From Candidatus Thorarchaeota archaeon (lineage in GTDB: Archaea > Asgardarchaeota > Thorarchaeia > Thorarchaeales > Thorarchaeaceae), in NCBI GenBank assembly GCA_963726195.1, contig CAVSBO010000003.1, positions 192,001 to 256,000 of the forward strand: 64,000 nucleotides of DNA. The letters are read 5' to 3'. A program made the translations under genes and the position numbers. The notes below the pieces were generated by a model, which searched no databases, was not told where the DNA came from, and saw nothing but the letters and a program-made list of their open reading frames with translations. The number at the start of each line of letters is the position of its first letter. Position 1 is the stretch's first letter. Shown here one piece after another: positions 35,996 through 50,817 of the stretch.

Positions 35996-36265
35996 TCACC
36001 CGCGCTCATAGACAACGCCTTTACCTCCAGAAGGATATCGGAAGTCGATAGCGTCTGCCTCACACACCTGGTAACATGCGGCGCATTCAAGGCATTTGGA
36101 TTTGTAGTCGTCTGCGAGTTGCACCTTGCTGCCTTTCTTCCTCCACAGATTCATCGTGCACACAACAAGACAACGACCGCACACGTTGCACTTCGCCGAA
36201 TCTAATTTGATGAAGTCAACAGACCCCGGCACCCTCTTGACGAGCGAATCCATGTCGGTCCTCAA
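35996..36265 (-). CDS. FixX-like 2x[4Fe-4S] ferredoxin
   Basis: CNVCGRCLVVC and CLECAACYQVC, FRYP.GG.GV.Y..G tail; ATGA overlap with upstream flavoprotein. Confidence 0.88.
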   Translation of the reverse strand: MRTDMDSLVKRVPGSVDFIKLDSAKCNVCGRCLVVCTMNLWRKKGSKVQLADDYKSKCLECAACYQVCEADAIDFRYPSGGKGVVYERG

Positions 36266-37663
36266 GTTCCTTCCTCCTTTTCTTCAAATGAAGAGGCAAT
36301 CGCCTCCTGTAGCTCAGGCATGGATTCCATCAGTTTTCCAGGATCTGTGAGGAGCTCCATCTTATCGCCCAGTACTTTTCCCAGTAGAGGCATGACCTCC
36401 TTCATGATAAACGGTACTGCTTGCGGCAGGTACGACTTGACCTGTCGCATTACCTGCTTGACTCGGACAGCATGAGGCTGTGACCAATCGAGTATGCCGC
36501 CAAGCACTTCCATAATCATAGGAATGAACCATGACATTGTCTCTTTGGGACTAAATGGTAACGCCCTCCAGATGCGTGCGAGTTCCGGTCCAGATTTGAA
36601 ATCCTCTCCGACACTGGTCTGGGACCACTTCGTGTCATAAAGATCCAAGAACTCATTCGATGTGTCGCCTGCTGAGATGGCTTCTGCGGCGGTCTCAGCT
36701 GCTGCCCTTCCGGTTATCATAGCAGGATAGATTCCTTCAGCCTCAAGAGGACACGGAACTCCTGCAGCATCGCCGACGAGAATCACATTGTCCGTATGAG
36801 TGTTCTTTGGGGCGCCGAGCCACGGTAACAGATGAACATGATACTCTCTGGGTTTCGCATCAAGTATCCGGACGAGTCTCTTGAAGTAATCGAGGTTGAC
36901 CACTTGGTTGAGGTAGGAAAGCGGGTTCTTGTCCCACCATGTCATCCAGTTGCCTAGGCCGATGTGGAAGCCGTCATGGAAGAACACCTGATAGGCCGCG
37001 GGAAACAATGCACTCCACCACACTGCAAGCGTCTCATCACCCATTATGTCGTCAATCTTCTGGGGGTCGACAGCATAGTCGTACTGAGGCACGAGAGTGA
37101 CATGGTCTTGGTCCCACCTCTTCCTGAGACCGCTCTGCCGAGCTACCATTGAGACTACTCCATCGGCACCGATGACCAAACCCCGGTACTTCTCACCATG
37201 TTCATCGATGACACCCACAACCCGGTCATTCTCCTTCAGAAGCCCCGTCACAAGGGTAGAGGTCTTCGAGCTCTGCGCCTACATTGCTCGCGAATGCCGC
37301 CAGCCAAGGGTCGAAGTCGCTTCTGTAGACATTCATGGTTATGAAGCTCTTTGCGGGTTCATACGAGACAGATTCAGTTGGTCTCGCCATCACATATCCA
37401 GCCACGACCCCTTCCTTGTTCACGAAGTAACTTCTCGATGCGGCACCGGCTCTCATCGAGGGGCACACTTCTGGATTCAGTTCTGTCATGAACCGGAAGT
37501 CATTCCACATCCGTGGCCCAAGCCCGCAGCCGGACGAGTTTTTCTCGCCGGGCTTCCTCCCTCTTTCGAAAAAGATTGTCTTCAGGCCACGGCTCGCTGC
37601 TTCCATAGCCGCAGCTGAACCACCTGGCCCTGCACCCACAATAACAACGTCGTAGTCTTTCAC
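36262..37663 (-). CDS. FixC/GGR-like FAD oxidoreductase; +1 indel near 37267
   Basis: GAGPGG, ERG..PGEKNSSG, R..FD.WL, GADGVVS, VGDAAG; joins as GAEL-KTSTLVTGL. Confidence 0.85.
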
Positions 37664-38453: not shown

Positions 38454-40442
38454 TCAGGAACTTCCTTCTTCTTGCTTTTCTTCCTCCTCTTCCTCCCAAG
38501 CGAATTCAACTACGCCTTCCCGTGACACGTTGACTGAGTGGACACCCTTCTGCTTTGTGTGCACATGCAACACTTGTGTCTCCTTGTCGTACTCATATGT
38601 CCCCTCGGTGAGCTTGACAGTGAAACCCTTGGGGTACTGCACCTCCGGCACATAGAGCGTGGTTTCGTCCCTGATGTTTGGGTCAGCGTCAAAATCAAAC
38701 ACGAACAAGCCGGTCTTCATGTCGAAGTCCATACGTTTGGGAGTGCCCGCGACAGTAATGAAGTGAGGACGACAGAAACCGCGAATTGCCCTTCCTCCAC
38801 TGTTGATATCGTCGGGCTCCGTCAGTTGATCGACACTGAACATGGAGAAGTCTTCGAGGTTCCATTGATCGCCCCACTCGTTTGTGTTGTCACAAGTGTA
38901 GTTCCACTGGGTGCTATGCAACAGACTCGCATCCAGAGCGTTGTAGTACTTCATGAGAGCTCTTTCGTGAGTGTTCCAGGCTTCGAGTGGATTTGTCTTG
39001 ATCTTCTCATAAGCACTCTTCTGGTCAAGGTCGTAGCATAAGCCAAACTCTCCTATGACAGTCGGTACGCTTTTGGAAACGCGAGCAGTACCCTCAGCAA
39101 TCCCCTTCAATTGCCTCACGAACATCTGAGCAACCTTCCCGGGCCCGATTACTGTGCTCCCTTTCGCGATGTCGTAACTCGCCTTTTCCATGAATCTCTT
39201 TGTGCCGATTGTGCCTACATCATACCAATGAGCTGCATGAACGGAGTTCGGAGGCACCTCTATCTGAAGAGGCTGTCCCATGATCGTTTTCTCTGTTGAG
39301 CCCTCGTAGAAGACCATAGCATCAGGCATCACGGTCCTAATCTCTTTGGCAACGCGATTAACGAAAGGCGACACGTAGTCTCTCACGAAGTCCACTTCGA
39401 CCTCCTTCTTCTTCATGAAGTGGTCATTGTCAAGTATTCGTGGTACGCCCCTCTCGAGATCCCAGACGTGCTCAGTTCGCCAGATATCTGGGCACCCTTT
39501 GAGCCATACAGCGACTCGGCCTGCGTTCATGATGTCCTTGCGAGTCTCCTTCACTCCGAATCGCTTGATTTCCCTATAGCCTACGGTCCGCGGGAACCCG
39601 GATGCCGTAGCCATCGCATCCAATGGGGAGAAAGCGTGGCCGATCACCGTGCTCACGTCAACGTTCGATCCGTCAACCTTGGCCCCAATCCATCCTTGGT
39701 CGGGTTCGTTCATCGTATCAAAGCCCAAGACATAGTCCATGTCTTTGGCAAAAGCAGCCACCTGTTTCAGAGCATCGAAGTAGTGCTCCTGCAGATACTC
39801 CTGCGCGTTCTGCCCTTCAACGACACACGAAGGTGCGAAGTCTTTTCCTCCAAAGAAGAGTGTCCACATGTTTGCGGCGGCAAAGCGGTACTTGTTCTGC
39901 GGCCAACTCATCGGTGGATATGCCTTGGGATCGTTGGGATTGAACCGGCGCTGCATCAAGAATGCCGCTTCAGATGCGTCGAGTTTTCCAATGTCGAGAC
40001 CTACGTTTTCAAGGGTCCAGCCCGGGGCGCCATCTCCGCCACACATTCGACTCCACACGTCTTGATGAGGGTCGATGAAGACGTACAGACCAAGGCCATC
40101 TGTCATCTTCAGAACCTCTTGCAAGTAGTCGAGATACTCCTTGTCATAATCACCGGGGCCGGAGTGTTCGATCCCCTCCCATGTGACCAGAAAGCGAAGA
40201 CAGTTGAACCCCCAGTGCTTGATTCTCTTGAGATGGCCCTCAGCCTCTGAAAGAGGAAATGGTCTACCTACATACGAGACCTCTCTATGGTCAAGGAGAT
40301 CAGTTTTGATATGTGTGGCACCATTGGGCGTGGCAGGGACCTTCGAGCTTCCACCAACGTTCACTCCTCTAAGGAGCACCTTACGACCCTTCTCATCCAC
40401 AAACGAGCCATTGGATATCTTGAGACGCGGACTCATGTTCAA
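38454..40442 (-). CDS. Glycoside hydrolase family 5, endoglycoceramidase-related (GH5_12-like)
   Basis: LRGVN.GGSSKVP, GRPFPL, TWE..EH.GPG.YD, DPHQDVWSR..GGDGAPGW, NEP acid/base, IGEFG nucleophile, WNY..DN...WGDQWN.EDFS; C-terminal beta domain; no signal peptide. Confidence 0.88.
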   Translation of the reverse strand: MNMSPRLKISNGSFVDEKGRKVLLRGVNVGGSSKVPATPNGATHIKTDLLDHREVSYVGRPFPLSEAEGHLKRIKHWGFNCLRFLVTWEGIEHSGPGDYDKEYLDYLQEVLKMTDGLGLYVFIDPHQDVWSRMCGGDGAPGWTLENVGLDIGKLDASEAAFLMQRRFNPNDPKAYPPMSWPQNKYRFAAANMWTLFFGGKDFAPSCVVEGQNAQEYLQEHYFDALKQVAAFAKDMDYVLGFDTMNEPDQGWIGAKVDGSNVDVSTVIGHAFSPLDAMATASGFPRTVGYREIKRFGVKETRKDIMNAGRVAVWLKGCPDIWRTEHVWDLERGVPRILDNDHFMKKKEVEVDFVRDYVSPFVNRVAKEIRTVMPDAMVFYEGSTEKTIMGQPLQIEVPPNSVHAAHWYDVGTIGTKRFMEKASYDIAKGSTVIGPGKVAQMFVRQLKGIAEGTARVSKSVPTVIGEFGLCYDLDQKSAYEKIKTNPLEAWNTHERALMKYYNALDASLLHSTQWNYTCDNTNEWGDQWNLEDFSMFSVDQLTEPDDINSGGRAIRGFCRPHFITVAGTPKRMDFDMKTGLFVFDFDADPNIRDETTLYVPEVQYPKGFTVKLTEGTYEYDKETQVLHVHTKQKGVHSVNVSREGVVEFAWEEEEEEKQEEGSS

Positions 40443-40457
40443 AGGAGACCTCCTTTC

Positions 40458-41600
40458 CTATGGCCAATGCATCATTTCGCAGTTTCTCTGAATCGCTTTG
40501 TCCAAACCATCAAGAATGCTTTTGGTGCCGCCCTTAGTTTTTGCGATTGTCGCAAGTTCGCTCATTGAAGCGGGAGTGCCTTTCTTTGCAGACAAGTACG
40601 ACAGCAGTGTTACAGCGATGGCTTGCTTGGCCTGTTCAGGCGTGAATTCAGGCGGCTGGTCGTTTAGTATGCACTGAGCGAAATGTGCATCCTCTTCTCT
40701 TGCGGATATGAGATAGTATTTGGGATATGCACCGTGTTCAACCTTCGGCGAATAGAACTCGCCCTTGACCTGTGCTTTCTCATGCGACGAGAATATGCTC
40801 ACTGGGTTGTCCCACGCATGATCCTCTAGGACTGTACCTCTTGTACCATGCAGCTCCATTCTGTTGGTCAATGGGTGTGACGTGACGGATGAGACATCAA
40901 CGGTAATCATTGCACCGTTCTTGTACCTGAGAAGAACAATGGCGTTATCCTCGCCTTTGTTTGGCGGCGAGTTTAGCGCCTTGCCCAGCCAGCACTGGGC
41001 TTTGTCAACCTCGCCGAGCATCCAATTGAGAGTGGCAAACTTGTGGCAGCCCTGATCAGCTACGACGCCTCCCCCGCCCTTGTCAAAGGTGAATTGCCAA
41101 TTGTCAGCATCGAGAAAGACGTGAGATGGCACAAAGGCACCTTCATAGGCCCGTCCCAAGAAGACATCACCAATCAGTCCGTCTTCAACCGCTTGCTTGA
41201 CGAGTTTATGTGCGGGGAGAAAGCGATGATTCTCTGCAATCATGAACTTCACCGATGCCTTGTTTGCTGCGGCAATCATCTGATCACACTCTTCCAAGGT
41301 TGTCGCCATTGGCTTCTCACATAGGATGTGTTTCCCGGAGTCAGCAACTCTCTTTTCCAAGGTTGCATGCAGGTAGTGAGGAACAGCCAACAGCACAGCA
41401 TCGATATCGCTCGCAAGGAACTTGTCCAGCTCAGAGTACGGAGTCAGCTTGTGGAGCCTTGAGAACCGAGCCAAGGCTTTGTCGTTAACATCATGAACGG
41501 CCACGTATTTGACAGATGCCTCAGGATTCTCTTTGGAAGACATGACATGGAAGCCGCCCGCATTTCCACAGCCTATTAGACCGAATTTGACTTGGGCCAT
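40458..41600 (-). CDS. Gfo/Idh/MocA NAD(P) oxidoreductase
   Basis: GLIGCG, P...H, GKHILCEKP, GGG...DQGCH. Confidence 0.92.
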   Translation of the reverse strand: MAQVKFGLIGCGNAGGFHVMSSKENPEASVKYVAVHDVNDKALARFSRLHKLTPYSELDKFLASDIDAVLLAVPHYLHATLEKRVADSGKHILCEKPMATTLEECDQMIAAANKASVKFMIAENHRFLPAHKLVKQAVEDGLIGDVFLGRAYEGAFVPSHVFLDADNWQFTFDKGGGGVVADQGCHKFATLNWMLGEVDKAQCWLGKALNSPPNKGEDNAIVLLRYKNGAMITVDVSSVTSHPLTNRMELHGTRGTVLEDHAWDNPVSIFSSHEKAQVKGEFYSPKVEHGAYPKYYLISAREEDAHFAQCILNDQPPEFTPEQAKQAIAVTLLSYLSAKKGTPASMSELATIAKTKGGTKSILDGLDKAIQRNCEMMHWP

Positions 41601-41655
41601 GAAGACCTTCTGATGCAGACCTCAGAATAAAGATTGTCACTCTATCTTGCCGTGC

Positions 41656-42453
41656 TCAAGGATTATGACTCGCCTTTCGCATCTGTTCAAGCAAGGCTTG
41701 CGGGTACTTCGCTTGGAAGAAGGGAAGACCAGAATAGAAGTGAGTAAACGTTGTAGCCAGTGGACCAGCCTTGTTTCTCTGCCTACTGTCATTTCCGAAG
41801 TATACCCGGCGATAAGCCTCTGCATACCTAGTACCCTTTACTTTGAAGCCCGAAAGAAGAGCAAGGGGTCGGACTAGATGCTTCATATTCTTCAACAGCC
41901 AAACCTGAGTCTGATGGCATTCAATCAGTTCCTCTGTCATGCGAAAACCCTCGGCCGGGAAAGGAAAGAAGACATTCGGAGCTATCGTGTTATAGAAGTA
42001 CAATGAAGGACTGAAGTCAATCATCTTGTGGTAGATGGCATAGAACACAGCGCGTCCAGTGTTCAGATGGTCCCTGTGATAGTACCAAGTGAACAAGCCC
42101 TCAGGAGCAACAACGACGTCGGGCCTATGCTGATTCATGTAGTCCGCGATTTTGCCGACAAACTCGCGATCAAATGGGACGAGCCCATCCACGTAACCCA
42201 AGAAATCAATGTGGTCGGGCGAGATTTTGTGAATTGCCGCAGCTGCGTATAGTTCCTTCGCCCTAACCCCGGCCAGGAAATCGCCCTTGAATCTGTCGTA
42301 CTTGAAGCCCGGTAGACCGAACTCTCCTTTGGTCACCGAGGCTATTCGGATGTCATGCTTCTGCGCGCTGACAACAGCAAGAGAGTGCAGGAGCTGAGAG
42401 CAATTCAGCTCTAGGTCATCGGGATGTGGCTCAAAGAATATGTATCGTTTCAT
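41656..42453 (-). CDS. PIG-L/LmbE family de-N-acetylase
   Basis: PHPDD, TKGEFG, R..EL..A, H.DH, H.TQ. Confidence 0.88.
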   Translation of the reverse strand: MKRYIFFEPHPDDLELNCSQLLHSLAVVSAQKHDIRIASVTKGEFGLPGFKYDRFKGDFLAGVRAKELYAAAAIHKISPDHIDFLGYVDGLVPFDREFVGKIADYMNQHRPDVVVAPEGLFTWYYHRDHLNTGRAVFYAIYHKMIDFSPSLYFYNTIAPNVFFPFPAEGFRMTEELIECHQTQVWLLKNMKHLVRPLALLSGFKVKGTRYAEAYRRVYFGNDSRQRNKAGPLATTFTHFYSGLPFFQAKYPQALLEQMRKASHNP

Positions 42454-42523
42454 TTTCCTACAACCAAGGCATCTTTAAATTCAGCCATATAGGTTCTTTC
42501 CAAAATCTCGAAGGCACTCATCC

Positions 42524-43441
42524 ATGTCTTATATGCTCGGAGTCACACTTGCTGTAGCATCTGGAATCTCAAACAACGTTGGCACTCTAGTACAGAAGAA
42601 GGTCGTTAACGAAGTTCCTCCAGAAGTGAGGGATGAGAGATTCATGAGAACCCTCGTGAGGAATCCGATGTGGATGTTTGGCATGATTCTTCAACTCGGG
42701 GTAGGTACAGTGTTCTTCATGCTTGCAACGAACTATATTGGTCCTGCACTAGTTCCCGGCCTGATGGCCGCAGGACTGATCGTTCTTGCGGTCGGGTCCA
42801 TCAAGCTCATACATGAATCGATCAGAGCCCCGGAAGCGGTTGGCATCACGCTCATGATTGTGGCTATCGTTCTCATTGGCGCCAGTTCTCTTGTGGTCGA
42901 TGCTTCTACCTTCAACTTTCTAGCACCTGATTTCTTGCTCCGAATATCGATCTTCACAGCGATCCTATTCCTAATCGTAGTCGTGCTCATTGTAACCGAG
43001 CGTCATTCAGTCAAACTAAAGGCTATCTCACTGGCGTTGATATCGGGGGTGATGTTCGCTCTGTCGAACTACTGGGTTAGTCCGCTCATGGGAACTATTG
43101 GGCACGTGCTGAGTGGAACCTTCGTGTTACCAGAGCTTGTGCTCTTCTCATTCGCAGCGGTGCTTCTCGTGCTAAACAATGTGGTTGGGATTAGTACTCT
43201 TCAGACTGCCTTCAAGTCCGGTCAGGCCAATATCCTAGTGCCGATTCAGCAGGTACCCATTCAAGTGACCCCGGCCCTTGTCTACTTCTTCGTGTTTGCC
43301 AAAGCTCCGCCCAATCAATTCTCATTCATGCTTTTGCTCATGGGCATTGCTGCGGTTGTCATGAGTTCGTTCCTGCTAGGCAGGCGGCAGGTCATGGTCG
43401 AGGCAACAAGACAAGAGTCGCATAGTAAACCTGAAAGCTGA
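42524..43441 (+). CDS. DMT superfamily transporter (NIPA-like)
   Basis: About 9 TMs; G..VQKK, L.RNP.W..G. Confidence 0.75.
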   Translation: MSYMLGVTLAVASGISNNVGTLVQKKVVNEVPPEVRDERFMRTLVRNPMWMFGMILQLGVGTVFFMLATNYIGPALVPGLMAAGLIVLAVGSIKLIHESIRAPEAVGITLMIVAIVLIGASSLVVDASTFNFLAPDFLLRISIFTAILFLIVVVLIVTERHSVKLKAISLALISGVMFALSNYWVSPLMGTIGHVLSGTFVLPELVLFSFAAVLLVLNNVVGISTLQTAFKSGQANILVPIQQVPIQVTPALVYFFVFAKAPPNQFSFMLLLMGIAAVVMSSFLLGRRQVMVEATRQESHSKPES

Positions 43442-43536
43442 GAGCCAAACGCCGGAGGCCCTATCAGCTCAGGTTAAGTCTAAATACCCGCCTGCGGGAT
43501 TCGAAGACCCAACGCTGACAAGGAAGGTTCCCTCAA

Positions 43537-43890
43537 TTGGCTACGAAAAAGGATGTAAAAGATGCACTACAGAAGTGGATTCAACTACTAGAGAAGAACC
43601 CCGATGTGTCGGGGCAGTTTGCTGGTTACAAGAAGACCTTCTTGATGAACTTCACGGACCTCAAGTACTCTGTCCAGATGGTGTTTGATGGGTCCGGCAA
43701 AGCGAAGCTGGTAGACGGAACGGTCGCAAAGCCAGATATGAGCTTGGATGTGGATTCGACTCTTTTTCTGAAAATATCCAATGGCGAACTCGATCCGATG
43801 GAAGCATTCATGAGCGGCCAGCTGAAACCCAAGGGCAACATGGCTGACCTTGAGAAGATGGAAGTCTTCATGGACCTGTTCGAGCAGTAG
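43537..43890 (+). CDS. SCP2 sterol/lipid carrier domain protein
   Basis: PD..L......F..I..GELDPMEAFMSGQLK.KGNM. Confidence 0.92.
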   Translation: MATKKDVKDALQKWIQLLEKNPDVSGQFAGYKKTFLMNFTDLKYSVQMVFDGSGKAKLVDGTVAKPDMSLDVDSTLFLKISNGELDPMEAFMSGQLKPKGNMADLEKMEVFMDLFEQ

Positions 43891-43917
43891 AGGTTCGCCG
43901 AACAAGGCCCCTTCATA

Positions 43918-45060
43918 ATGGAGGTGCCCTTCATGGAGCCAATCGGGTACAACAGAAAGAGAGCAAGTGAGATTCTCGACCGTTCAGGCATCGACGTACT
44001 GATTGCCTCGACGGACGCAAACGTATTCTATACAACGGGACTGCCAGTTGTCCACGTAGCGGACAACCCCATCCTTTGGGTACTGAAGAACCAATTCCCG
44101 TACATCTCGCTAGTCCGAAGGGATGGCGAGCTAAGTCTGTTCTATTGGATGGCCTATAGCAGCGCAGACAAGTTCTCATGGGTCAAGGATGCCACCGGGA
44201 TTGTCACGCCGCAGCAAGCCCTACAAGGAGTGGCAGACAAGATAAATGAGTGGCAGGGAAGCAAGAAGAAGACAATCGGCCTCGAAAGCCTGATGCCGAG
44301 GTATCAGTCAGAGTTCCTCAGGTCGAGGTTCCCCGAAGCAAACTTCGTTGAAGCAGATGATATCTTCCTTCAGATGAGGATTGTCAAATCTGACGAGGAA
44401 CTGCGTCGCATAAAGCGGTCGATGGAAGTTGCTGAGTCTGCAATAAGCGCCGTAATTGAAGCAGCTCACGAGAAAGTAACTGACAGGGAATTGCTGGAGG
44501 TAGCGCGTCAGAAAATTGTCGAATCGGGAGCACCCGGCTGGGATCACCTAACCATGGGAATTGGATCCTCGGACCCTGAGGCTCCAGGAGTCGGAACAAC
44601 GATGATGAAAGGCGACCTGAGTCGAATAGACGTGGGTGCTGTTTGGCAAGGATACGTTTCGGACCTAAGCCGCGAATTCGTAGTCGGAACCATTCCCGAA
44701 GGCGCTCAGGAAACAATGGACAGGCTCATCAAGGTGCAAGATTTCTGCGTTGAAAACATCAAGCCCGGAGTCAAGCCGGGCGATGTATTCAAGGCAGCAA
44801 TCGAATACCACAAGACTCTGAAGAAAGTATTACGACCAATTATCACATGCCATAGCTTGGGGATTGAGTGCGAAGAAATGCAGATGTTCTCTCCTATGAG
44901 AAGTGCGACAATTCCATTCCAAGAGAATATGACTGTCGATATTGAAGTCTGGCAACCTTTCCAGCAGTACCGTTTGGTTGGTATCGAGGACGCCTATCGA
45001 ATCACTTCGTCCGGGTGCGAGAGACTCTCAACTCTCGATAGAGAAATCGCAGTGAGATGA
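43918..45060 (+). CDS. M24 family (Xaa-Pro/creatinase-like) metallo-amidohydrolase
   Basis: Creatinase_N-like N-domain (NVFYTTG), RIVKSDEEL, D..G....GY.SD.SR, HSLG, IE, GIED. Confidence 0.85.
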   Translation: MEVPFMEPIGYNRKRASEILDRSGIDVLIASTDANVFYTTGLPVVHVADNPILWVLKNQFPYISLVRRDGELSLFYWMAYSSADKFSWVKDATGIVTPQQALQGVADKINEWQGSKKKTIGLESLMPRYQSEFLRSRFPEANFVEADDIFLQMRIVKSDEELRRIKRSMEVAESAISAVIEAAHEKVTDRELLEVARQKIVESGAPGWDHLTMGIGSSDPEAPGVGTTMMKGDLSRIDVGAVWQGYVSDLSREFVVGTIPEGAQETMDRLIKVQDFCVENIKPGVKPGDVFKAAIEYHKTLKKVLRPIITCHSLGIECEEMQMFSPMRSATIPFQENMTVDIEVWQPFQQYRLVGIEDAYRITSSGCERLSTLDREIAVR

Positions 45061-45069
45061 GAACAGAAG

Positions 45070-45846
45070 ATGAGAGTGAAGGACAAAGTAGTTGTGTTGA
45101 CAGGAGCTGCCTCGGGCATTGGCAGAGCTGCTGCGGTTCTTCTTGCGAAAGAGGGAGCTATTCAGGTTCTCTCAGATGTCAATGAGCAGGGACTGAAAGA
45201 AACCTTAGCCTCGATTCGTGAGGGGAAGGAGCGAACGACCACCCAGAAGTGTGATGTGACCAAGCCCGACGAAGTCAAGCGGATGGTCGATGGCGTCATA
45301 GCCAAGTACAAGCGAATTGACGTTTTGATAGCGAATGCGGGAGTCGTGAGGGTTGGGCCAATCGAAGACTTCTCGGATCAGGACTACGACCTCCTCATCA
45401 ATGTCAACCTAAGGGGTACGTTCTACACCTGCAAGTTTGCCGTTCCCTACTTGAAGAAGCAGAAGCATGGTTCAATCATCACACTTGCATCTGTGGCAGC
45501 CCACATCGGTCAAGTGAACCACGCGAATTACTGTTCGACAAAGGCGGGCATTCTTGGTTTCACACGCGCCCTTGCACTGGATCTCGCTCCCTACGGCGTT
45601 CGAGTGAACTCGGTCTCACCTGGCGCAACTGACACGCCCATGCTTGTAAGTGATGTGACGAAGCAGGCCCGTGAACGCGGCGTGGATTACGCCATTGTGA
45701 AAAAGGAGTTCGAGTCCGAAGGCGTCATGGGTCGTTGGGCTACGGCCGAAGAGGTCGCGTACGGCATCGTGTTTTTGGCCAGCGATGAGTCGTCGTACAT
45801 GACGGGGTCGGACCTAAGGATGGATGGGGGTTGGACAGCTAGGTAG
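45070..45846 (+). CDS. Short-chain dehydrogenase/reductase
   Basis: TGAASGIG, NAG, YCSTK, RVNSVSPG, DGG. Confidence 0.93.
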   Translation: MRVKDKVVVLTGAASGIGRAAAVLLAKEGAIQVLSDVNEQGLKETLASIREGKERTTTQKCDVTKPDEVKRMVDGVIAKYKRIDVLIANAGVVRVGPIEDFSDQDYDLLINVNLRGTFYTCKFAVPYLKKQKHGSIITLASVAAHIGQVNHANYCSTKAGILGFTRALALDLAPYGVRVNSVSPGATDTPMLVSDVTKQARERGVDYAIVKKEFESEGVMGRWATAEEVAYGIVFLASDESSYMTGSDLRMDGGWTAR

Positions 45847-45934: not shown

Positions 45935-47983
45935 ATGTCGAGGCCGCCAGTGGCAAAGAGGGAGCCGCGTCAGCTCAAGATACATGGAAAGACACTCGTT
46001 GACAATTACTTCTGGCTAAGGAACAAGGATTCTGAAGATGTTGTGAGCTACCTCACAGCCGAGAATGCCTATACCGAGGAAATGATGGCTGATACCAAGA
46101 GCCTTCAGGAGCAGCTCTTCCAAGAGATGAAAGGCAGGATCAAGGAAACTGATCAGAGCGCTCCGATGAAACACGGAGACTACTTCTACTATTATCGGAC
46201 CGAAGAGGGCAAGGACTACCGCATTCACTGTCGAAAGCATACGGCAATGAGCGCTCCCGAGGAAATCATACTCGACGAAAACGACGTGGCAAAGGGAAAG
46301 AAGTACATGAGTATAGAGAGCCTGAAGATTAGTCCTGACCACAAGAGACTCGCATACTCGGTTGATTTTACAGGAGGAACCACGTATGATATCCGAATCG
46401 TGGACCTTGATTCAAGAAGAATCATTGACACCGTCGAACAAGTTGGCGGACAGATTGAATGGGATTGGGACAGCAATGCTATCTTCTACTCAAAGCTCGA
46501 TAACATCCACCGTGACTACACTGTGTCGGTTCACATAATAGGCACCGGAAGCTCGCAAGATGAAGCTTTTACGAAGAACCAGACACTTCGTTGTTTGTTG
46601 TTCTCTCTAAGTCCAGTGACAAGAAGTACCTCTTTGCTAAGGTTGGTCAGCTACGGCTCAGAAACTTTTGACGTTCGTTACCTAGAGCTGAGCGGCCTGA
46701 CCGCAAACTTGGGACATTCTTGGCACGTAGAGAGGGTGTCGAAACCGACATTCAGCACCATCACGGATACTTCTACTTCTCCACGAATCTTGAGGATCGG
46801 ATGACGTTCAAATTGATGAGAACACCGGTCTTCGATGTTAGTCGCGCCAGCTGGGAGAGCGTCATCGACCAAAGCATCGAGGCCCGCCAACCTTGGCTCT
46901 TAGCCTTCGAAAACTACTTGGTCACAGGCAAGCGCAAGGACGGATACGCGTGCTTCATGATCTATGATTTCTCAACAGGGGAGACTCATGACATTGATCT
47001 GCCCGAGAGCATTTACGCACTCGAAGTACCCGATGATAACCACGAGTTCGAGTCGGACTCATTTCGATTCGTCTTTCAGCTCCACAGTCACACCTACAAC
47101 AGTATACGACTACAACATGGCGACCCGGAGGCTCGAAGTAAAGAAGATTGATGAAATAAGGAATCACAAACCAGTGGATTTCGTTACAGAACGTGGGTAT
47201 GCTACAGCTAAGGACGGAACAAAGGTACCAATCTCGATTGCCTACAGAAAAGGGACCAAGATGAATAGGAGAAGTCCCTTGGTCCTGTATGGATATGGTT
47301 CCTATGGATACTCATCTGACCCCGGCTTTGACTCAATGAGGTTGAGCCTTATTCAGCGGGGTTTCATCTATGCCACTGCTCATGTGCGTGGCGGCGGAGA
47401 GTATGGCAGGCTCTGGTATCATCAGGGCAAGCTCTCGAACAAAATGAACACGTTTACAGACTTTGTTGCTTGTGCAGAGTACTTGGTCCATGAGGGATTC
47501 ACGTCGAGAGATAGACTGTGCATTCTTGGAGGCAGTGCAGGCGGGCTGCTTATTGGTGCTGTCTTGAACCTTCGACCTAATCTTTTTGCATGCGCAGTAC
47601 CGCGCGTTCCTTTTGTCGATGTGATAAACACCATGCTCGACGACACGATTCCACTGACGACATTCGAGTACAAAGAGTGGGGTGACGCTAGAATCAAGAA
47701 CCAGTTTGACTGGATGATTCGCTACTCGCCCTACGACAATGTGAACGCAAGAAAGTACCCGCCGATGCTAATCACAGCGGGGTACAACGATCCGAATGTT
47801 GCTTACTGGGAGCCTGCCAAGTGGACAGCAAAACTGCGAAGCCTCAACACTGACGGAAATCTCCTGCTCCTATGGACGCGGATGGAGAGCGGCCATGCCG
47901 GCCTCAGCGGCCGATATGAAAAGATGAAGGAGGGGGCATTCATCTATGCATTCATCTTGAAGACTCTGCACATAGCGGCTTGA
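45935..47983 (+). CDS. ptrB: Oligopeptidase B (S9A); about 3 indels
   Basis: PPVAKR, DNYFWLR, ILDEN, YGYGSYG, HVRGGGE, GGSAGG, VPFVDV, D..V.YWEPAKW, GH; split over three ORFs. Confidence 0.9.
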
Positions 47984-48022: not shown

Positions 48023-48772
48023 CTAGACCGTCATTCCGCCGTCAACTGAAAGAATGGCTCCTGTGCAAAACCCGTCGAGAATCAAGAACAGGATTCCTTC
48101 GGCTATCTCATCAGGTTTTCCAAAACGCCCTAGAGGCTGTCGCGCTATGAATTGCTTTCGTGCTGCATCTGGGTCTGGGAGTTGGGCAATTCTCTGCTGC
48201 AGTGATGGCGTATCGGTCGTCCCGGGACATATGCAATTCACTCGAATGCGGTCCTCGACGTAGTCCGCCGCCATTGCGCGAGTGAGCGAGACCACTGCTC
48301 CCTTTGATGCAGAGTATGCCGCTCGGTCCTTCACGCCCTTTATTGCAACAGACGAGCCAGTGTTGATTATCACGCCCTGAGTTTTCTTCAGATAAGGAAT
48401 CGCGAACTTGGAAACAAGATAGGTACCCCGCACGTTCACTGCCATTGTCCTGTCCCAGTCCGAATCGGTAGCGTTGTCCACGCGTCCCGGGATCACGATA
48501 CCCGCAATGTTGCAAAGGATATCCAGCTGCTTGTAAGCGTCTACAGCCTTGCTTACTATCCTCTTTGCATCTTCGGCAACTGCGACGTCCCCCTGCTCGA
48601 AAACCGCATCTCCGCCTGCTTGTTTGATCTCCTTAGCAACTGTGGATCCCTGTTCGGAGGTGCCATTGCACACGACTCTTGCGCCTTCCTTGGCGAGCAG
48701 CTTTGCCGTCGCTTCACCGATACCCGCACTCGAGCCAGTGACAATCGCAACCTTTCCTTTCAAACGCATCAT
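48023..48772 (-). CDS. SDR, BDH2 / 2-keto-3-deoxy-sugar-acid 4-dehydrogenase-like
   Basis: TGSSAGIG, YSASK, CPGTTDTPSLQQRI...DP..AR..FIARQPLGR subfamily signature. Confidence 0.85.
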   Translation of the reverse strand: MMRLKGKVAIVTGSSAGIGEATAKLLAKEGARVVCNGTSEQGSTVAKEIKQAGGDAVFEQGDVAVAEDAKRIVSKAVDAYKQLDILCNIAGIVIPGRVDNATDSDWDRTMAVNVRGTYLVSKFAIPYLKKTQGVIINTGSSVAIKGVKDRAAYSASKGAVVSLTRAMAADYVEDRIRVNCICPGTTDTPSLQQRIAQLPDPDAARKQFIARQPLGRFGKPDEIAEGILFLILDGFCTGAILSVDGGMTV

Positions 48773-48795: not shown

Positions 48796-49599
48796 CTACA
48801 ACCCGATGAGTTTCCGTGCCTCAGAGGGGTCAGCGACTTCGCGGCCTATTTCTCTAGACAGGCGGACTGCCCGGGACACAATCTCAGCATTGTTCTTCGC
48901 TGGAACACCTGACGAGATGAATGGGTTGTCTTCAGTGCCGACTCTCACATTGCCGCCAGTGGCAATAGCAAGACCTACAATCTTCATCTGCTCCTCGCCC
49001 ATCACGCTTACTGTGTGGATGCAATCACGGGGCATGTACTTCAACCGATGCAGATACTCATCCGGCGTAGGCGGAGACCAAGTACCTCCAGGCCAATTGA
49101 AGAACAATGTAAGCACATAGGGCGGCTTGAGCAGCCCTTTGTCAATCAAGTACTGGAGATTCCAGAATGAACCAGTGTGCCACACCTCCCACTCGGGCTT
49201 GATGCGCAAACCCTGGCATCGCTTGCAGTAGCGCTCTAACTCGTCAAGCGTGTGTATCTGGTTGACGGAGAGCTTGGTGAAATGCTCGTCATGGTGGTTC
49301 AGGATGATGCTCATCATGTCAGGCTTTGCCTTGAAGGTGTTTTCGCGCTGCTCAATCGGGTAGCTAGACATCCCTCCTTGGATTATTACATCGGTCTGCT
49401 CACGAATCATCTTGACTACATCCTGTTCCTGACCCAAGGGTAAGTGCACATGAGCGATGGCGGCGCCTGCTTCAGCACAATCGACTACATCCTTGACCAG
49501 GGCCTCAGTGGTCTCTGCCCAGTTCTTGACCTCAGGGTGAATCCATGAATTCGCAGTAGTGGCAGTAATGACGAGCTTGTCCTGCACCAACCAAGTCAC
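48796..49599 (-). CDS. Beta-keto acid cleavage enzyme (BKACE/DUF849, Kce family)
   Basis: KLVITA, C.EAGAAIAHVH, IKPEWE, GGNVRVGTEDN, NAEIV, GREVA.P.EAR..IGL. Confidence 0.9.
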   Translation of the reverse strand: MTWLVQDKLVITATTANSWIHPEVKNWAETTEALVKDVVDCAEAGAAIAHVHLPLGQEQDVVKMIREQTDVIIQGGMSSYPIEQRENTFKAKPDMMSIILNHHDEHFTKLSVNQIHTLDELERYCKRCQGLRIKPEWEVWHTGSFWNLQYLIDKGLLKPPYVLTLFFNWPGGTWSPPTPDEYLHRLKYMPRDCIHTVSVMGEEQMKIVGLAIATGGNVRVGTEDNPFISSGVPAKNNAEIVSRAVRLSREIGREVADPSEARKLIGL

Positions 49600-49746: not shown

Positions 49747-50817
49747 ATGGAGCTTCTTCACTCCAGTTGGGGTTCCATCGGAGGACGAACATCGAAGCTG
49801 TTTACAGTGAGAGATGATGACTCAGGTTTTCAGGTGTCCATATCTGATCTGGGGGCTTCGGTAGTTCGGGTAATCATGCCGGACCGGCATGGAAATCTCT
49901 CAGACGTAGCCTTCGGCCAAGATTCCGCAGAGCAGTTGGTCAAGCAAGGAGGCTATCTCGGAACCACTCTCGGTCGAGTGGCGGGCCGTATCGCAAACGC
50001 AAGATTCACCATGGATGGTAAAGAGCACGCTCTTTTTGCCAACGCATCGGGCGGTCACTCGCTGCACGGAGGAAAGGAAGGATTCGACAAGAAGATCTGG
50101 ACTCTGAAACTGAAGCAAGTTCTTCGCGAAGAAAACAGTGTGGCGTTATTGTTCGAGTATGTCAGTCCGGACGGAGAAGAAGGGTACCCCGGGAGACTAC
50201 AAACGCTGCTCACATACAGAATCACCCCTATGGAGCTGACTTGGGAGTATCAGGCAAAGACGGACCAGCCAACCATTGTCAATCTGACCAATCACTCATA
50301 CTGGAACTTGGACGGTCTCGACACCTTGGTGGACAATCTACGCATCAGGATCGATTCCTCTCGATACATGCCTGCTGACACGAACACGATTCCAATCGGT
50401 GAAATCAAGGACCTGAAAGGCACAACTCTCGACTGTCGCTCGCCAAAGCCTTTCTCAGAAGTCTTCTCCTCTTACGGCGATGTTGATGATGTGTTTCTTC
50501 TAGACGGGTTTGGACGCAAGAAAAAGCCCGAGGACATGGTCTTCGCCGCTGAGCTCTACTCGCCAACAACCGGGAGAAGAATGGAACTCTACACGACTGA
50601 ACCTTCTCTTGTTGTGTATACTGGCAACCATATGGCGTCACTGAAGTCATTCGGAAAGCCATGTCGAAAGCATTCAGCCGTATGCCTTGAAGACCAACGA
50701 CCACCGAATGCTATCAATGACCCTCGCTTTGCTCAGACCGTTGTCTTGAGGCCAGACGAAACCTACTATCATAGAACGTTTCTTAGATTCAGGGTTGGCG
50801 ACCGCAAATCGGCGTGA
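49747..50817 (+). CDS. galM: Aldose 1-epimerase (mutarotase)
   Basis: GR.A.RI, LHGG..GFD, DGEEGYPG, NLTNHSYWNL, YTGN, CLE.Q..PNAIN. Confidence 0.93.
   Translation: MELLHSSWGSIGGRTSKLFTVRDDDSGFQVSISDLGASVVRVIMPDRHGNLSDVAFGQDSAEQLVKQGGYLGTTLGRVAGRIANARFTMDGKEHALFANASGGHSLHGGKEGFDKKIWTLKLKQVLREENSVALLFEYVSPDGEEGYPGRLQTLLTYRITPMELTWEYQAKTDQPTIVNLTNHSYWNLDGLDTLVDNLRIRIDSSRYMPADTNTIPIGEIKDLKGTTLDCRSPKPFSEVFSSYGDVDDVFLLDGFGRKKKPEDMVFAAELYSPTTGRRMELYTTEPSLVVYTGNHMASLKSFGKPCRKHSAVCLEDQRPPNAINDPRFAQTVVLRPDETYYHRTFLRFRVGDRKSA

What the first reader, a model, noticed from the sequence alone, without database searches (positions are those of the whole stretch)
38454..45846. Divergent glycolipid-processing island: EGCrP-like GH5 + PIG-L deacetylase + SCP2 lipid carrier + NIPA-like transporter + atypical M24 amidase
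Seen: PIG-L, Gfo/Idh/MocA and GH5 run leftward, and DMT, SCP2, M24 and SDR run rightward from a 70-bp shared gap (42454-42523); the GH5 has no signal peptide. Established: the GH5 motifs are those of subfamily GH5_12, which contains fungal glucosylceramidases and steryl-beta-glucosidases. PIG-L enzymes de-N-acetylate GlcNAc conjugates (GlcNAc-PI, mycothiol/bacillithiol precursors), and SCP2 domains carry sterols and acyl lipids. Inference: a cytoplasmic pathway that dismantles or remodels (amino)sugar-lipid conjugates, either scavenged glycolipids or the cell's own glyco-archaeols. I do not know of such a pathway described in Asgard archaea.
Basis: partly seen in the sequence, partly recalled or inferred. 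Interest (0 to 1): 0.7.

Follow-up and report, generated by a model that had tools for sequence, protein, structure and literature searches.

The report
Asgard sterylglucosidase-like glucoside breakdown cluster
A Thorarchaeota (Asgard) genome carries a real gene cluster, shared in shuffled order with many Lokiarchaeia, that pairs a cytoplasmic relative of the fungal steryl-glucosidases with a lipid-carrier protein, two amide hydrolases, a transporter and sugar-oxidising enzymes; it probably breaks down a greasy glucoside whose identity is still unknown.

Summary
All seven genes sit at the stated coordinates with the stated domains, and a 70-bp divergent gap separates the two arms.

- **GH5:** it resembles the fungal sterylglucosidases SglA (E 2e-90) and Sgl1 (E 1e-86). 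It keeps both catalytic glutamates and every glucose-binding residue reported for Sgl1.
- **Co-conservation:** GH5, Gfo/Idh/MocA, PIG-L, the DMT-like transporter, SCP2 and M24 recur around GH5 homologues in Thorarchaeota and in 17 of 23 Lokiarchaeia loci. A second SDR and a BKACE gene usually accompany them. Gene order and orientation differ between loci.
- **Extent:** in the window the unit therefore runs at least to 49599.
- **Distribution:** the set was not found beside any of about 66 bacterial GH5 homologues.
- **Corrections:** the M24 is not atypical at its metal site (all five ligands are present), and "NIPA-like" is weakly supported.

The lipid nature of the substrate remains an inference. 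It rests on GH5_12 homology, on SCP2 co-conservation, and on lipid-metabolism neighbours of GH5 homologues in other lineages. Sugar-type neighbours (GH20, KDG kinase, isomerase and ketohexokinase, a GPH-family transporter) keep a soluble-glycoside reading alive.

I found no paper describing this cluster. This scan has already met the same cluster in other Asgard genomes and reached the same verdict. The GH5 shows no special link between Asgard archaea and eukaryotes.

The parts
38454..40442 (-). GH5_12-like retaining exo-beta-glucosidase (662 aa, no signal peptide), with a C-terminal GH5_C beta-sandwich
   Evidence: Pfam Cellulase plus GH5_C. PDB SglA 2e-90 and Sgl1 1e-86. K34, H126, N245, E246, E465, W513 and E530 match the Sgl1 glucose-binding and catalytic residues; five are invariant and N245 and E530 are kept in 43 of 44 Asgard orthologues.
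40458..41600 (-). Gfo/Idh/MocA NAD(P)-dependent sugar dehydrogenase, starting 15 bp downstream of... upstream partner of GH5 in the same operon-like arm
   Evidence: Pfam, three domains. Best NCBIfam hits are IolG 3e-42 and archaeal UDP-GlcNAc 3-dehydrogenase 8e-33, both below cut-off. Best PDB hit is WlbA 3q2k, 1.5e-31. Co-conserved with GH5 in 22 loci.
41656..42453 (-). PIG-L/LmbE-family zinc de-N-acetylase or amidase
   Evidence: Pfam PF02585, 69 bits. The PHPDD and HRDH motifs are invariant. Best PDB hit is the Pyrococcus/Thermococcus diacetylchitobiose deacetylase, 2e-8.
42454..42523 (.). 70-bp divergent intergenic region with TATA-like elements; probable shared promoter region
   Evidence: Sequence read directly; gap confirmed from ORF coordinates. 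Promoter function is inferred, not shown.
42524..43441 (+). Membrane protein of about 10 helices with a DMT-superfamily-like fold; probable carrier
   Evidence: No Pfam hit. ArnE 5e-5. AlphaFold model with pLDDT 83. Best fold matches are LicB, the triose-phosphate translocator, Vrg4 and PfCRT at Z 7.9-8.5. The family is multi-copy in Asgard archaea. The copy linked to the cluster is conserved in 17 loci.
43537..43890 (+). Stand-alone SCP2 lipid-binding domain protein (117 aa)
   Evidence: Pfam SCP2 6.9e-13. PDB AF_1534 and the MFE-2 SCP2 domain, about 3e-5. Conserved in the cluster in 13 or more loci. One of six SCP2 genes in this genome.
43918..45060 (+). M24B-type (Creatinase_N plus pita-bread) metallohydrolase with an intact two-metal site
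   Evidence: Pfam. PDB Pyrococcus prolidase 1.5e-26. D238, D249, H312, E343 and E357 are invariant in 20 orthologues. In Lokiarchaeia it lies next to a Gfo/Idh/MocA gene in two paralogous pairs.
45070..45846 (+). Classical SDR (3-hydroxy-acid or sugar dehydrogenase type)
   Evidence: Pfam adh_short_C2 1e-65. NCBIfam hits are all below cut-off. 71-91% identical orthologues lie in the cluster in Thor and Loki loci.
45935..47983 (+). S9 prolyl oligopeptidase read as two ORFs (frame change near 46700-46800); an insertion specific to this genome, not part of the conserved set
   Evidence: Pfam S9_N and S9. Three-frame translation shows the frame change. Absent between the two SDRs in G003 (L008) and in L041.
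48023..48772 (-). Second SDR, which reaches the NCBIfam glucose 1-dehydrogenase subfamily cut-off
   Evidence: Pfam. NF005559 scores 217.5 bits against a cut-off of 215. 59-85% identical orthologues lie beside BKACE in Thor and Loki loci.
48796..49599 (-). BKACE (beta-keto acid cleavage enzyme) family protein
   Evidence: Pfam PF05853 2e-50. PDB Kce 9e-23. NCBIfam Kce 2e-42, below cut-off. Conserved in 14 loci.
49747..50817 (+). Aldose 1-epimerase (mutarotase), divergent from BKACE; a neighbour in this genome but not part of the widely conserved set
   Evidence: Pfam 7e-72. NCBIfam galM scores 234.6 against a cut-off of 240. A singleton in the locus clustering.

Best explanation
This is an Asgard-specific, cytoplasmic catabolic cluster for an amphiphilic beta-glucoside, that is, a glycolipid-type conjugate taken from the surroundings.

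Proposed steps (all substrate assignments are inferred):
1. The DMT-like carrier brings in the compound or a fragment of it, or handles a product.
2. SCP2 keeps the hydrophobic part soluble and presents it to the soluble enzymes.
3. The GH5_12-type enzyme removes one beta-linked glucose from the hydrophobic aglycone by the usual retaining two-glutamate mechanism (E246 acid/base, E465 nucleophile).
4. PIG-L and the M24 metallohydrolase, both with intact metal sites, cut amide bonds (N-acetyl, N-acyl or peptidyl) elsewhere in the head group or aglycone.
5. The Gfo/Idh/MocA enzyme, the two SDRs, the mutarotase and BKACE oxidise the released sugar or hydroxy-acid pieces towards central metabolism. 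Lokiarchaeia add a KDG kinase to this set.

Shown here: the homology, the intact active sites, the absence of signal peptides and the co-conservation of the genes.
For: **GH5 is a glucosidase of the steryl-glucosidase type**
- SglA 2e-90 and Sgl1 1e-86, covering the enlarged catalytic domain that forms the cap in Sgl1.
- All Sgl1 glucose-binding residues (K47, H142, N269, E270, E520, W570, E587 in PMC8497620) align with K34, H126, N245, E246, E465, W513 and E530. Five are invariant in 44 Asgard orthologues; N245 and E530 are kept in 43 of 44.

**The genes are co-conserved**
- tblastn of the window proteins on 45 loci of about 20 kb around Asgard GH5 homologues finds PIG-L in 22, GFO in 22, M24 in 18, DMT in 17, BKACE in 14 and SCP2 in 13 or more, with different orders and orientations.
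- By family: every Thor (f1) locus; 17 of 23 Loki (f9) loci; and partial sets in f18 (L055 has GH5 with PIG-L; in G092 the DMT gene ends about 130 bp from GH5).
- The GH5s linked to the cluster form one subclade (support 0.86) inside a single Asgard clade (0.996).

**Lipid links**
- SCP2 is kept inside the cluster.
- Elsewhere, GH5 homologues sit next to an alpha/beta-hydrolase, an acyl-CoA synthetase and a KAS-III-like gene (f12).
- One overlaps a UbiA prenyltransferase gene (f18), and one lies next to an alpha/beta-hydrolase (f27).
- In one Anaerolineaceae sublineage the GH5 lies between genes for glycerol-3-phosphate oxidase, an FGGY kinase and a phosphodiesterase on one side and a fatty-acid-hydroxylase-family protein, an alpha/beta-hydrolase and an MFS carrier on the other.

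**Catabolic direction**
- SDR2 reaches the glucose 1-dehydrogenase subfamily cut-off, and a mutarotase is adjacent.
- A KDG kinase sits beside BKACE in 11 Loki loci.
- KDPG aldolase and a KdgK-like gene occur elsewhere in this genome.
Against: - No assay or structure shows a lipid substrate.
- Only one of the four tested Sgl1 pocket residues has a hydrophobic counterpart here (Sgl1 L458 aligns with I412, a position that varies among orthologues). The others align with T or E, or fall in an insertion missing from this protein. The aglycone is therefore not ergosterol-like in detail.
- A secondary carrier of the DMT type is an odd importer for a membrane lipid.
- Several Loki neighbours are of the sugar or peptide type: GH20, KDG kinase, amino-acid racemase, a Pab87-type beta-lactamase-fold peptidase, a sugar isomerase with a ketohexokinase, and a GPH-family MFS_2 carrier.
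- The best structural relatives of PIG-L act on soluble chitobiose.
- SCP2 genes are common in this genome (six copies).
- Putative operon partners of bacterial GH5_12 homologues show no consistent theme (at most 3 of 77 share any Pfam family).
Confidence: 0.45

Rival explanations
1. The cluster breaks down a small, soluble, decorated glucoside or amino-sugar glycoside, for example an N-acetylated glycoside, glycopeptide or oxidised chitin-type fragment. The DMT carrier imports it. GH5 (and GH20 in Lokiarchaeia) remove sugars. PIG-L and M24 remove acetyl or aminoacyl groups. Gfo/Idh/MocA, the SDRs, BKACE and KdgK convert the sugar or amino-sugar acid to KDG-type intermediates. This would resemble in logic the bacterial Ong pathway for GlcNAc1A or the Thermococcales Dac/GlmA chitobiose route. 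In this reading SCP2 binds a modestly hydrophobic aglycone or has an unrelated role.
For: - GH20 lies next to GH5 in 7 Loki loci, a KDG/KDGal kinase next to BKACE in 11, and an amino-acid racemase between the two SDRs in 6.
- In Loki loci without the cluster, a sugar isomerase plus a ketohexokinase, or a GPH-type MFS_2 carrier, lie next to GH5.
- The best PDB match of PIG-L is diacetylchitobiose deacetylase.
- The best PDB match of GFO is WlbA, an N-acetyl amino-sugar 3-dehydrogenase.
- All enzymes are soluble and cytoplasmic, and the transporter is a secondary carrier.
- The Ong pathway uses GH20, a deacetylase, a deaminase and KdgK (PMC9537276).
Against: - SCP2 is kept inside the cluster across families.
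- The characterised relatives of the GH5 all act on lipid or hydrophobic aglycones.
- The GH5 sugar pocket is glucose-type, not glucosamine-type.
- No PLP deaminase, D-aminoacylase or GH35 glucosaminidase was seen in the cluster.
- No GH20 was found in this genome with this query (the genome is 88.9% complete).
Confidence: 0.3
2. The cluster turns over or remodels the cell's own membrane glycolipids (glucosyl-archaeol or GDGT-type, or a GlcNAc/inositol-bearing head group) from the cytoplasmic face, rather than scavenging foreign compounds. SCP2 would extract the lipid, and the DMT-like protein would act as a flippase-like partner.
For: - All enzymes are cytoplasmic.
- The only NCBIfam match of the DMT-like protein is the lipid-linked-sugar flippase subunit ArnE, at 5e-5.
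- A GH5 homologue overlaps a UbiA prenyltransferase gene in f18.
- PIG-L enzymes are known to act on GlcNAc-phosphatidylinositol (established knowledge of the family).
Against: - Distribution is patchy: GH5 was found in only 9 of 85 genomes searched in the window's own family and in 110 of 400 of the phylum. That is unlike a housekeeping function.
- The cluster carries sugar-oxidising enzymes and, in Lokiarchaeia, a KDG kinase, which are typical of nutrient use.
- No glycosyltransferase or lipid-synthesis gene belongs to the conserved set.
Confidence: 0.12
3. The neighbours are unrelated genes that happen to lie beside a stand-alone beta-glucosidase.
For: - In bacteria, and in Asgard families f12, f14, f20, f22 and f27, the GH5 homologue stands without these neighbours.
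- Each neighbour belongs to a large, common family.
Against: The same six to nine genes recur next to GH5 in rearranged order at 40-65% protein identity in different Asgard families. The GH5s linked to them form a single subclade.
Confidence: 0.03

Closest known systems
Fungal steryl-beta-glucosidases and glucosylceramidases of GH5_12: Aspergillus SglA (PDB 8EXD), Cryptococcus Sgl1/EGCrP2 (PDB 7LPO), EGCrP1
   Same: - Clear sequence homology over the enlarged catalytic domain and the C-terminal beta-sandwich (2e-90 and 1e-86).
- Both catalytic glutamates and all reported glucose-binding residues are kept.
- No signal peptide.
   Different: - The residues lining the sterol pocket are not conserved.
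- The protein is shorter (662 aa against about 780-800 aa).
- It is archaeal and sits in a multi-gene cluster, which the fungal genes do not.
- A bacterial homologue (Bellilinea) is closer to SglA (419 bits) than the Asgard protein is (307 bits), so there is no special link between Asgard archaea and fungi.
Thermococcales chitobiose route (Dac, a PIG-L-family deacetylase, plus the GlmA exo-beta-glucosaminidase)
   Same: A cytoplasmic PIG-L-family deacetylase is paired with a clan GH-A exo-glycosidase in an archaeon. Dac is the best solved relative of the window's PIG-L (2e-8).
   Different: - The similarity to Dac is weak.
- The glycosidase here is GH5_12 with a glucose-type pocket, not the GH35 glucosaminidase.
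- The cluster adds SCP2, M24, Gfo/Idh/MocA, SDRs and BKACE.
Bacterial Ong pathway for oxidised chitin (GH20 OngA, deacetylase OngB, deaminase OngC, KdgK; PMC9537276)
   Same: The logic is similar: glycosidase, then deacetylase, then a KDG-type intermediate and a KDG kinase. Loki versions of the cluster carry GH20 and KdgK.
   Different: - The enzyme families differ: PIG-L instead of a D-aminoacylase, and no PLP deaminase or RidA was seen.
- The window genome has no GH20 match.
- Its KdgK-like gene lies about 300 kb away.
Lysosomal glycosphingolipid degradation with lipid-presenting cofactors (saposins, GM2 activator)
   Same: Conceptual only: soluble exo-glycosidases (a hexosaminidase and a glucosylceramidase-type enzyme) working with a small lipid-binding protein.
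   Different: - There is no homology between the cofactors (SCP2 against saposin or GM2AP).
- The compartment differs.
- The resemblance is an analogy from general knowledge and was not tested here.

Membership tests
CAZy GH5, subfamily 12 | GH5 (beta/alpha)8 catalytic domain with the NEP acid/base glutamate and the nucleophile glutamate | tested here: met
   Pfam Cellulase 1.8e-18. N245-E246-P and E465 align with the catalytic residues of SglA and Sgl1. Both glutamates are invariant and N245 is kept in 43 of 44 orthologues.
CAZy GH5, subfamily 12 | Closer to characterised GH5_12 members than to members of other GH5 subfamilies | tested here: met
   SglA 2e-90 and Sgl1 1e-86, against endoglycoceramidases (GH5_28/29) at about 1e-12 and other GH5 enzymes at 1e-4 or weaker. 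That the fungal enzymes belong to GH5_12 rests on Aspeborg 2012 (PMC3526467) and on my own knowledge of CAZy.
CAZy GH5, subfamily 12 | Assignment by the dbCAN/CAZy subfamily model | not tested
   No dbCAN model is available among the tools.
CAZy GH5, subfamily 12 | Hydrolysis of beta-glucosides with hydrophobic aglycones (steryl glucoside, glucosylceramide, flavonoid glucoside) | not testable with these tools
   This needs an enzyme assay. Only the conservation of the glucose subsite was checked.
PIG-L / LmbE (CE14) de-N-acetylases | Pfam PF02585 domain with the zinc and general-base motifs (A/P)HPDD and HxDH | tested here: met
   69.1 bits against a cut-off of 28.2. PHPDD at residues 9-13 and HRDH at 126-129 are invariant in 21 orthologues.
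SCP2 lipid-transfer domain | SCP2 fold domain above the Pfam threshold | tested here: met
   49.2 bits against a cut-off of 21.3. PDB matches to archaeal and peroxisomal SCP2 domains at about 3e-5. Lipid binding itself cannot be tested here.
Peptidase family M24B (prolidase, aminopeptidase P, creatinase fold) | Creatinase_N plus the pita-bread domain, with the five ligands of the two-metal centre (D, D, H, E, E) | tested here: met
   Pfam. Alignment to Pyrococcus prolidases 1WY2 and 1PV9. D238, D249, H312, E343 and E357 are invariant in 20 orthologues. Xaa-Pro specificity was not tested; all NCBIfam equivalog scores are far below cut-off.
DMT (drug/metabolite transporter) superfamily, NIPA-like | 10-TM fold built from two 5-TM repeats, with a significant match to an EamA, NIPA or other DMT model | tested here: inconclusive
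   No significant Pfam match (EamA E 3.4). ArnE 5e-5 over the first half. The model has about 10-11 helices. Best fold matches are the DMT members LicB, TPT, Vrg4 and PfCRT, but only at Z 7.9-8.5. A NIPA hit (1.6e-5) was seen only on a fragment of a Loki paralogue.
BKACE (beta-keto acid cleavage enzymes) | PF05853 TIM-barrel domain | tested here: met
   172 bits against a cut-off of 24.8. Kce structures at 9e-23. It is not a Kce equivalog (145 against 382). The substrate is unknown.
Conserved catabolic gene cluster (glycoside utilisation locus in the broad sense) | The same gene set is retained next to the glycosidase across distant genomes despite rearrangement | tested here: met
   The set is present in Thor (f1), Loki (f9) and partly in f18. 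It is absent beside the bacterial homologues.
Ong oxidative chitin pathway | GH20 OngA, D-aminoacylase-type OngB, PLP deaminase OngC and KdgK in one cluster | tested here: not met
   No GH20 match in the own genome. The deacetylase belongs to a different family (PIG-L). No PLP enzyme lies in the cluster. The KdgK-like gene lies elsewhere.

The most novel reading that the evidence does not exclude
Asgard archaea possess a dedicated cytoplasmic pathway for taking apart glycolipids, possibly eukaryote- or plant-type ones such as steryl glucosides, glucosylceramides or inositol/GlcNAc-bearing sphingolipids, which are abundant in peat and sediments. A soluble SCP2 protein would act as the lipid-presenting cofactor for a steryl-glucosidase-like enzyme. 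That would be a prokaryotic counterpart of activator-assisted glycolipid degradation, in the lineage closest to eukaryotes.
Probability: 0.2. Interest if true: 0.8.

Novelty: new variant of a known kind. Interest (0 to 1): 0.5.

Why it matters
Asgard archaea are the closest known relatives of eukaryotes, and how they handle lipids is an open question. Here a relative of the fungal steryl-glucosidases is locked into a conserved cluster with a lipid-transfer-domain protein and about seven other enzymes, in roughly a quarter of the Asgard genomes sampled. This gives a concrete set of proteins that can be expressed to test whether these organisms eat or remodel glycolipids.

Even if the substrate proves to be soluble, the cluster would still be an undescribed pathway. 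Its members (GH5_12, PIG-L, M24, Gfo/Idh/MocA, BKACE) have not been reported working together. It may also be a significant route of carbon use in peat and sediments.

The GH5 does not support a link to the origin of eukaryotes, because the fungal enzymes are closer to the bacterial homologues.

Tried and rejected
- **Foldseek against the PDB with the DMT model.** Nothing at E <= 0.001. Only the wider VIA search gave DMT-type matches, at middling Z.
- **Expression.** No RNA holder was listed for the stretch, so nothing can be said about expression.
- **Bacterial context as a guide to the substrate.** Of 77 putative operon partners of bacterial GH5 homologues, at most 3 shared any Pfam family, so no general inference is possible. 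Only one Anaerolineaceae sublineage shows a lipid and glycerol theme, and its six loci are close relatives.
- **A signature protein shared between Asgard archaea and eukaryotes.** Rejected. A Bellilinea homologue scores higher against SglA than the Asgard protein does, and the Asgard and bacterial sequences form separate clades. No fungal sequence was in the tree.
- **Recent horizontal transfer of an "island".** Not supported. GC content is flat across the window. The Thor GH5s are monophyletic and sister to an f18 sequence, not nested within Loki. Patchy presence in the family (9 of 85) fits loss or old transfer.
- **GH5 as an exo-glucosaminidase working after PIG-L (the Thermococcus scheme).** Judged unlikely, because the glucose-binding residues of Sgl1 are all kept.
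- **Lysine-fermentation Kce, inositol Iol, ectoine Doe/Eut and deoxyribonate pathways.** I considered each for the BKACE/SDR/M24/racemase genes. In each case key enzymes are missing from the cluster and the NCBIfam scores are far below cut-off.
- **Literature.** Searches for GH5_12, steryl glucosidase or endoglycoceramidase together with Asgard, and for SCP2, PIG-L or BKACE together with Asgard, found no description of this cluster.

Full report
**Observation**

The window is contig 3, positions 192001-256000, of a 2.9-Mb genome in 19 contigs, 88.9% complete. Named close homologues place it in Thorarchaeota.

- GH5, 38454-40442(-): Cellulase plus GH5_C.
- Gfo/Idh/MocA, 40458-41600(-).
- PIG-L, 41656-42453(-).
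- A 305-aa membrane protein, 42524-43441(+).
- SCP2, 43537-43890(+).
- Creatinase_N plus M24, 43918-45060(+).
- An SDR, 45070-45846(+).

The divergent gap 42454-42523 is 70 bp long and contains AT-rich elements that look like TATA boxes. The leftward genes are separated by 55 and 15 bp, so they probably form an operon. None of the soluble proteins has a hydrophobic N-terminus.

**The GH5**

- Against all solved structures, the best matches are Aspergillus sterylglucosidase A (8EXD, 2e-90) and Cryptococcus Sgl1 (7LPO, 1e-86). Endoglycoceramidases follow far behind, at about 1e-12.
- The Sgl1 structure paper (PMC8497620) names K47, H142, N269, E270, W570 and E587 as the glucose contacts, and E270 and E520 as the catalytic pair.
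- In the HMMER alignment these align with K34, H126, N245, E246, W513, E530 and E465 of the window protein. Five of the seven are invariant in 44 Asgard orthologues, and N245 and E530 are kept in 43 of 44.
- The enzyme is therefore very probably a retaining exo-beta-glucosidase that takes a single glucose in its sugar-binding pocket.
- The sterol-pocket residues tested in Sgl1 are not conserved. L458 aligns with I412, a position that varies among orthologues. L290 and L431 align with T and E. A470 falls in an insertion that is absent here. The aglycone is therefore unlikely to be ergosterol as such.

**The other enzymes**

- *PIG-L:* it has the PHPDD and HRDH zinc motifs, invariant in 21 orthologues. 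Its best solved relatives are the Pyrococcus and Thermococcus diacetylchitobiose deacetylases, at a weak 2e-8.
- *M24:* it aligns with the Pyrococcus prolidases (1.5e-26). It keeps all five metal ligands (D238, D249, H312, E343, E357), invariant in 20 orthologues.
- *Gfo/Idh/MocA:* its best solved relative is WlbA, an N-acetyl amino-sugar 3-dehydrogenase (1.5e-31). Glucose-fructose oxidoreductase, inositol dehydrogenases and glycoside 3-dehydrogenases follow. No NCBIfam equivalog cut-off is reached.
- *Membrane protein:* it has no significant Pfam hit. An AlphaFold model (pLDDT 83) gives its best matches to the DMT-superfamily carriers LicB, the triose-phosphate translocator, Vrg4 and PfCRT, at Z about 8. 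That is suggestive but not decisive.

**Is it a unit?**

- *Distribution of the GH5.* A GH5 homologue is present in 110 of 400 Asgard genomes searched. It is common in one Lokiarchaeia family (f9, 63 of 135) and rare in the window's own family (f1, 9 of 85).
- *Neighbours.* I fetched about 20 kb around 45 of these genes and searched them with the window's proteins. ORF clustering found PIG-L in 22 loci, Gfo/Idh/MocA in 22, M24 in 18, DMT in 17, BKACE in 14, the SDR pair in 14 and SCP2 in at least 13.
- *By family.* The set is present in every Thor locus and in 17 of 23 Loki loci. Gene order and orientation differ, for example BKACE-DMT-PIG-L-SCP2-M24-GFO-(GH5)-SDR2-SDR in L042, against the divergent arrangement in the window. 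Partial sets occur in a third family, f18: L055 has GH5 with PIG-L, and in G092 the DMT gene ends about 130 bp from GH5.
- *Loci without the set.* In f12, f14, f20, f22 and f27 the GH5 stands without these genes. None of about 66 bacterial loci, mostly Chloroflexota/Anaerolineae, has them.
- *Tree.* In a GH5 tree the Asgard sequences form one clade (support 0.996), apart from the bacterial ones. The GH5s linked to the cluster form one subclade (0.86), in which the Thor sequences plus one f18 sequence are sister to the Loki sequences.

The cluster is therefore real, old and specific to Asgard archaea. In the window it extends beyond the reported span to SDR2 (48023-48772) and BKACE (48796-49599). 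The S9 prolyl oligopeptidase between the two SDRs is an insertion specific to this genome, and the aldose 1-epimerase at 49747-50817 is a local neighbour only.

**What the extra neighbours say**

In Loki versions of the cluster:
- BKACE is preceded by a PfkB kinase that matches KDG/KDGal kinases (5e-67, and 1e-161 to the kinase half of a KDPG-aldolase/kinase fusion).
- An amino-acid racemase sits between the two SDRs.
- A GH20 hexosaminidase often flanks GH5.
- A Pab87-type beta-lactamase-fold peptidase sometimes flanks GH5.
- M24 and Gfo/Idh/MocA occur as two paralogous adjacent pairs, which suggests that they act on the same intermediate.

SDR2 reaches the NCBIfam glucose 1-dehydrogenase subfamily cut-off (217.5 against 215). 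These features point to a catabolic role, with oxidative handling of the released sugar.

Lipid-type contexts also recur:
- SCP2 lies inside the cluster.
- An alpha/beta-hydrolase, an acyl-CoA synthetase and a KAS-III-like gene flank the f12 GH5.
- A UbiA prenyltransferase gene overlaps the GH5 gene in f18, and an alpha/beta-hydrolase lies beside it in f27.
- In one Anaerolineaceae sublineage the GH5 sits among genes for glycerol-3-phosphate oxidase, an FGGY kinase, a phosphodiesterase, a fatty-acid-hydroxylase-family protein, an alpha/beta-hydrolase and an MFS carrier.

Sugar-type contexts recur as well. In Loki loci without the cluster, an isomerase plus a ketohexokinase, or a GPH-family carrier, lie next to GH5. 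Bacterial operon partners as a whole show no theme.

**Interpretation**

The best-supported reading (about 0.45) is a cytoplasmic pathway that strips glucose from an amphiphilic glucoside:
- SCP2 holds the hydrophobic part.
- PIG-L and M24 cut amide bonds elsewhere in the molecule.
- The oxidoreductases and BKACE feed the pieces into metabolism.

The main rival (about 0.3) is a soluble decorated glycoside or amino-sugar glycoside. Its logic would resemble the bacterial Ong route for oxidised chitin (PMC9537276) or the Thermococcales Dac/GlmA route, although the defining enzymes of both are missing. Remodelling of the cell's own glycolipids (about 0.12) fits the cytoplasmic location but not the patchy distribution. 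Chance adjacency is excluded by the synteny.

**Comparison and novelty**

- The GH5 is a new archaeal member of the GH5_12-like family. Aspeborg et al. listed that family for Bacteria and Eukaryota only (PMC3526467).
- The family is large, with 570 clusters at 50% identity scoring E <= 1e-30.
- A bacterial homologue (Bellilinea) is closer to fungal SglA (419 bits) than the Asgard protein is (307 bits). There is thus no sign of a special relationship between Asgard archaea and eukaryotes.
- The cluster itself was not found in the literature searched. A preprint on Asgard lipid-transfer proteins notes one SCP2 homologue in MK-D1 without following it up.
- Earlier notes of this scan describe the same cluster in other Thor and Loki genomes, with the same verdict. 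I read them after my own synteny analysis, and they agree with it.

**Other points**

- Near-identical DNA is held by two peat metagenome runs of one study (word shares 0.60 and 0.49). One of these may be the source sample. No RNA run was listed.
- The assembly shows frame changes in at least three genes: the S9 peptidase, an FAD oxidoreductase that is intact in the sister genome, and a KdgK-like gene about 300 kb away. Apparent pseudogenes here may therefore be sequencing errors.

Noticed in passing
window 45935-47983 (+): An S9 prolyl oligopeptidase reads as two ORFs (289 and 339 aa). The reading frame continues in another frame near 46700-46800, so there is a frameshift or an assembly error. 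The gene is absent from this position in the same-genus genome G003 (L008) and in L041, where the two SDR genes are adjacent.
   Followed up: partly
window 36262-37663 (-): An FAD-dependent oxidoreductase is split into overlapping ORFs in different frames (37226-37663, carrying the FAD-binding N-terminus, and 36262-37251). In the sister genome G002 it is one 466-aa ORF (L007:8042-9442). This suggests an indel in this assembly.
   Followed up: partly
G000:C3 about 535000-545000 (locus L161:6847-16826), outside the window: This is a second sugar-acid locus in the same genome. It holds an aminotransferase, a glycyl-radical (PFL-like) enzyme, a KdgK-like gene read in three frames (two frame changes), a KDPG/KHG aldolase, a TnpB (IS605 OrfB), another SCP2 gene, an FAD-linked oxidase with an Fe-S/CCG subunit, and a myo-inositol-1-phosphate synthase.
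   Followed up: partly
window 35020-35895 (+): An Asparaginase_2 gene (isoaspartyl peptidase / glycosylasparaginase family) lies about 2.5 kb from the GH5. It is kept near the cluster in the two same-genus genomes (L007, L008) but not in Loki loci.
   Followed up: partly
L098, L104, L109, L130, L132, L137 (Anaerolineaceae MAGs), around position 10000: The bacterial GH5_12 homologue is embedded among genes for glycerol-3-phosphate oxidase, an FAD-linked oxidase, an FGGY kinase, a type I phosphodiesterase, a fatty-acid-hydroxylase-family protein, an alpha/beta-hydrolase and an MFS carrier. It looks like a glycero(glyco)lipid breakdown locus. The six loci are close relatives, so this counts as one observation.
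   Followed up: partly
L056:6551-10862 (Asgard family f18, G105): The GH5 gene overlaps by 8 bp a downstream UbiA-family prenyltransferase gene, which is followed by an Rce1-like CAAX protease gene on the same strand.
   Followed up: no
L075:3138-4322 (Loki, G265) and other c21 members: This ORF has an N-terminus that is a copy of the first half of the DMT-like transporter (54% identical; a weak NIPA Pfam hit). Its C-terminal half is URO-D-like. It may be a fusion or a remnant beside the intact DMT gene.
   Followed up: no
L055:7705-9009 (f18, G110) and L161:8649-10001: TnpB/IS605 OrfB genes lie directly beside the GH5-PIG-L pair in G110. In the window's genome one lies beside the second SCP2 locus.
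   Followed up: no
L046, L049 (Loki, G256 and G216): Two GH5 paralogues and duplicated M24/GFO/PIG-L genes lie within one 20-kb stretch. The two GH5 copies fall in different Loki subclades of the tree, so the duplication is old.
   Followed up: partly
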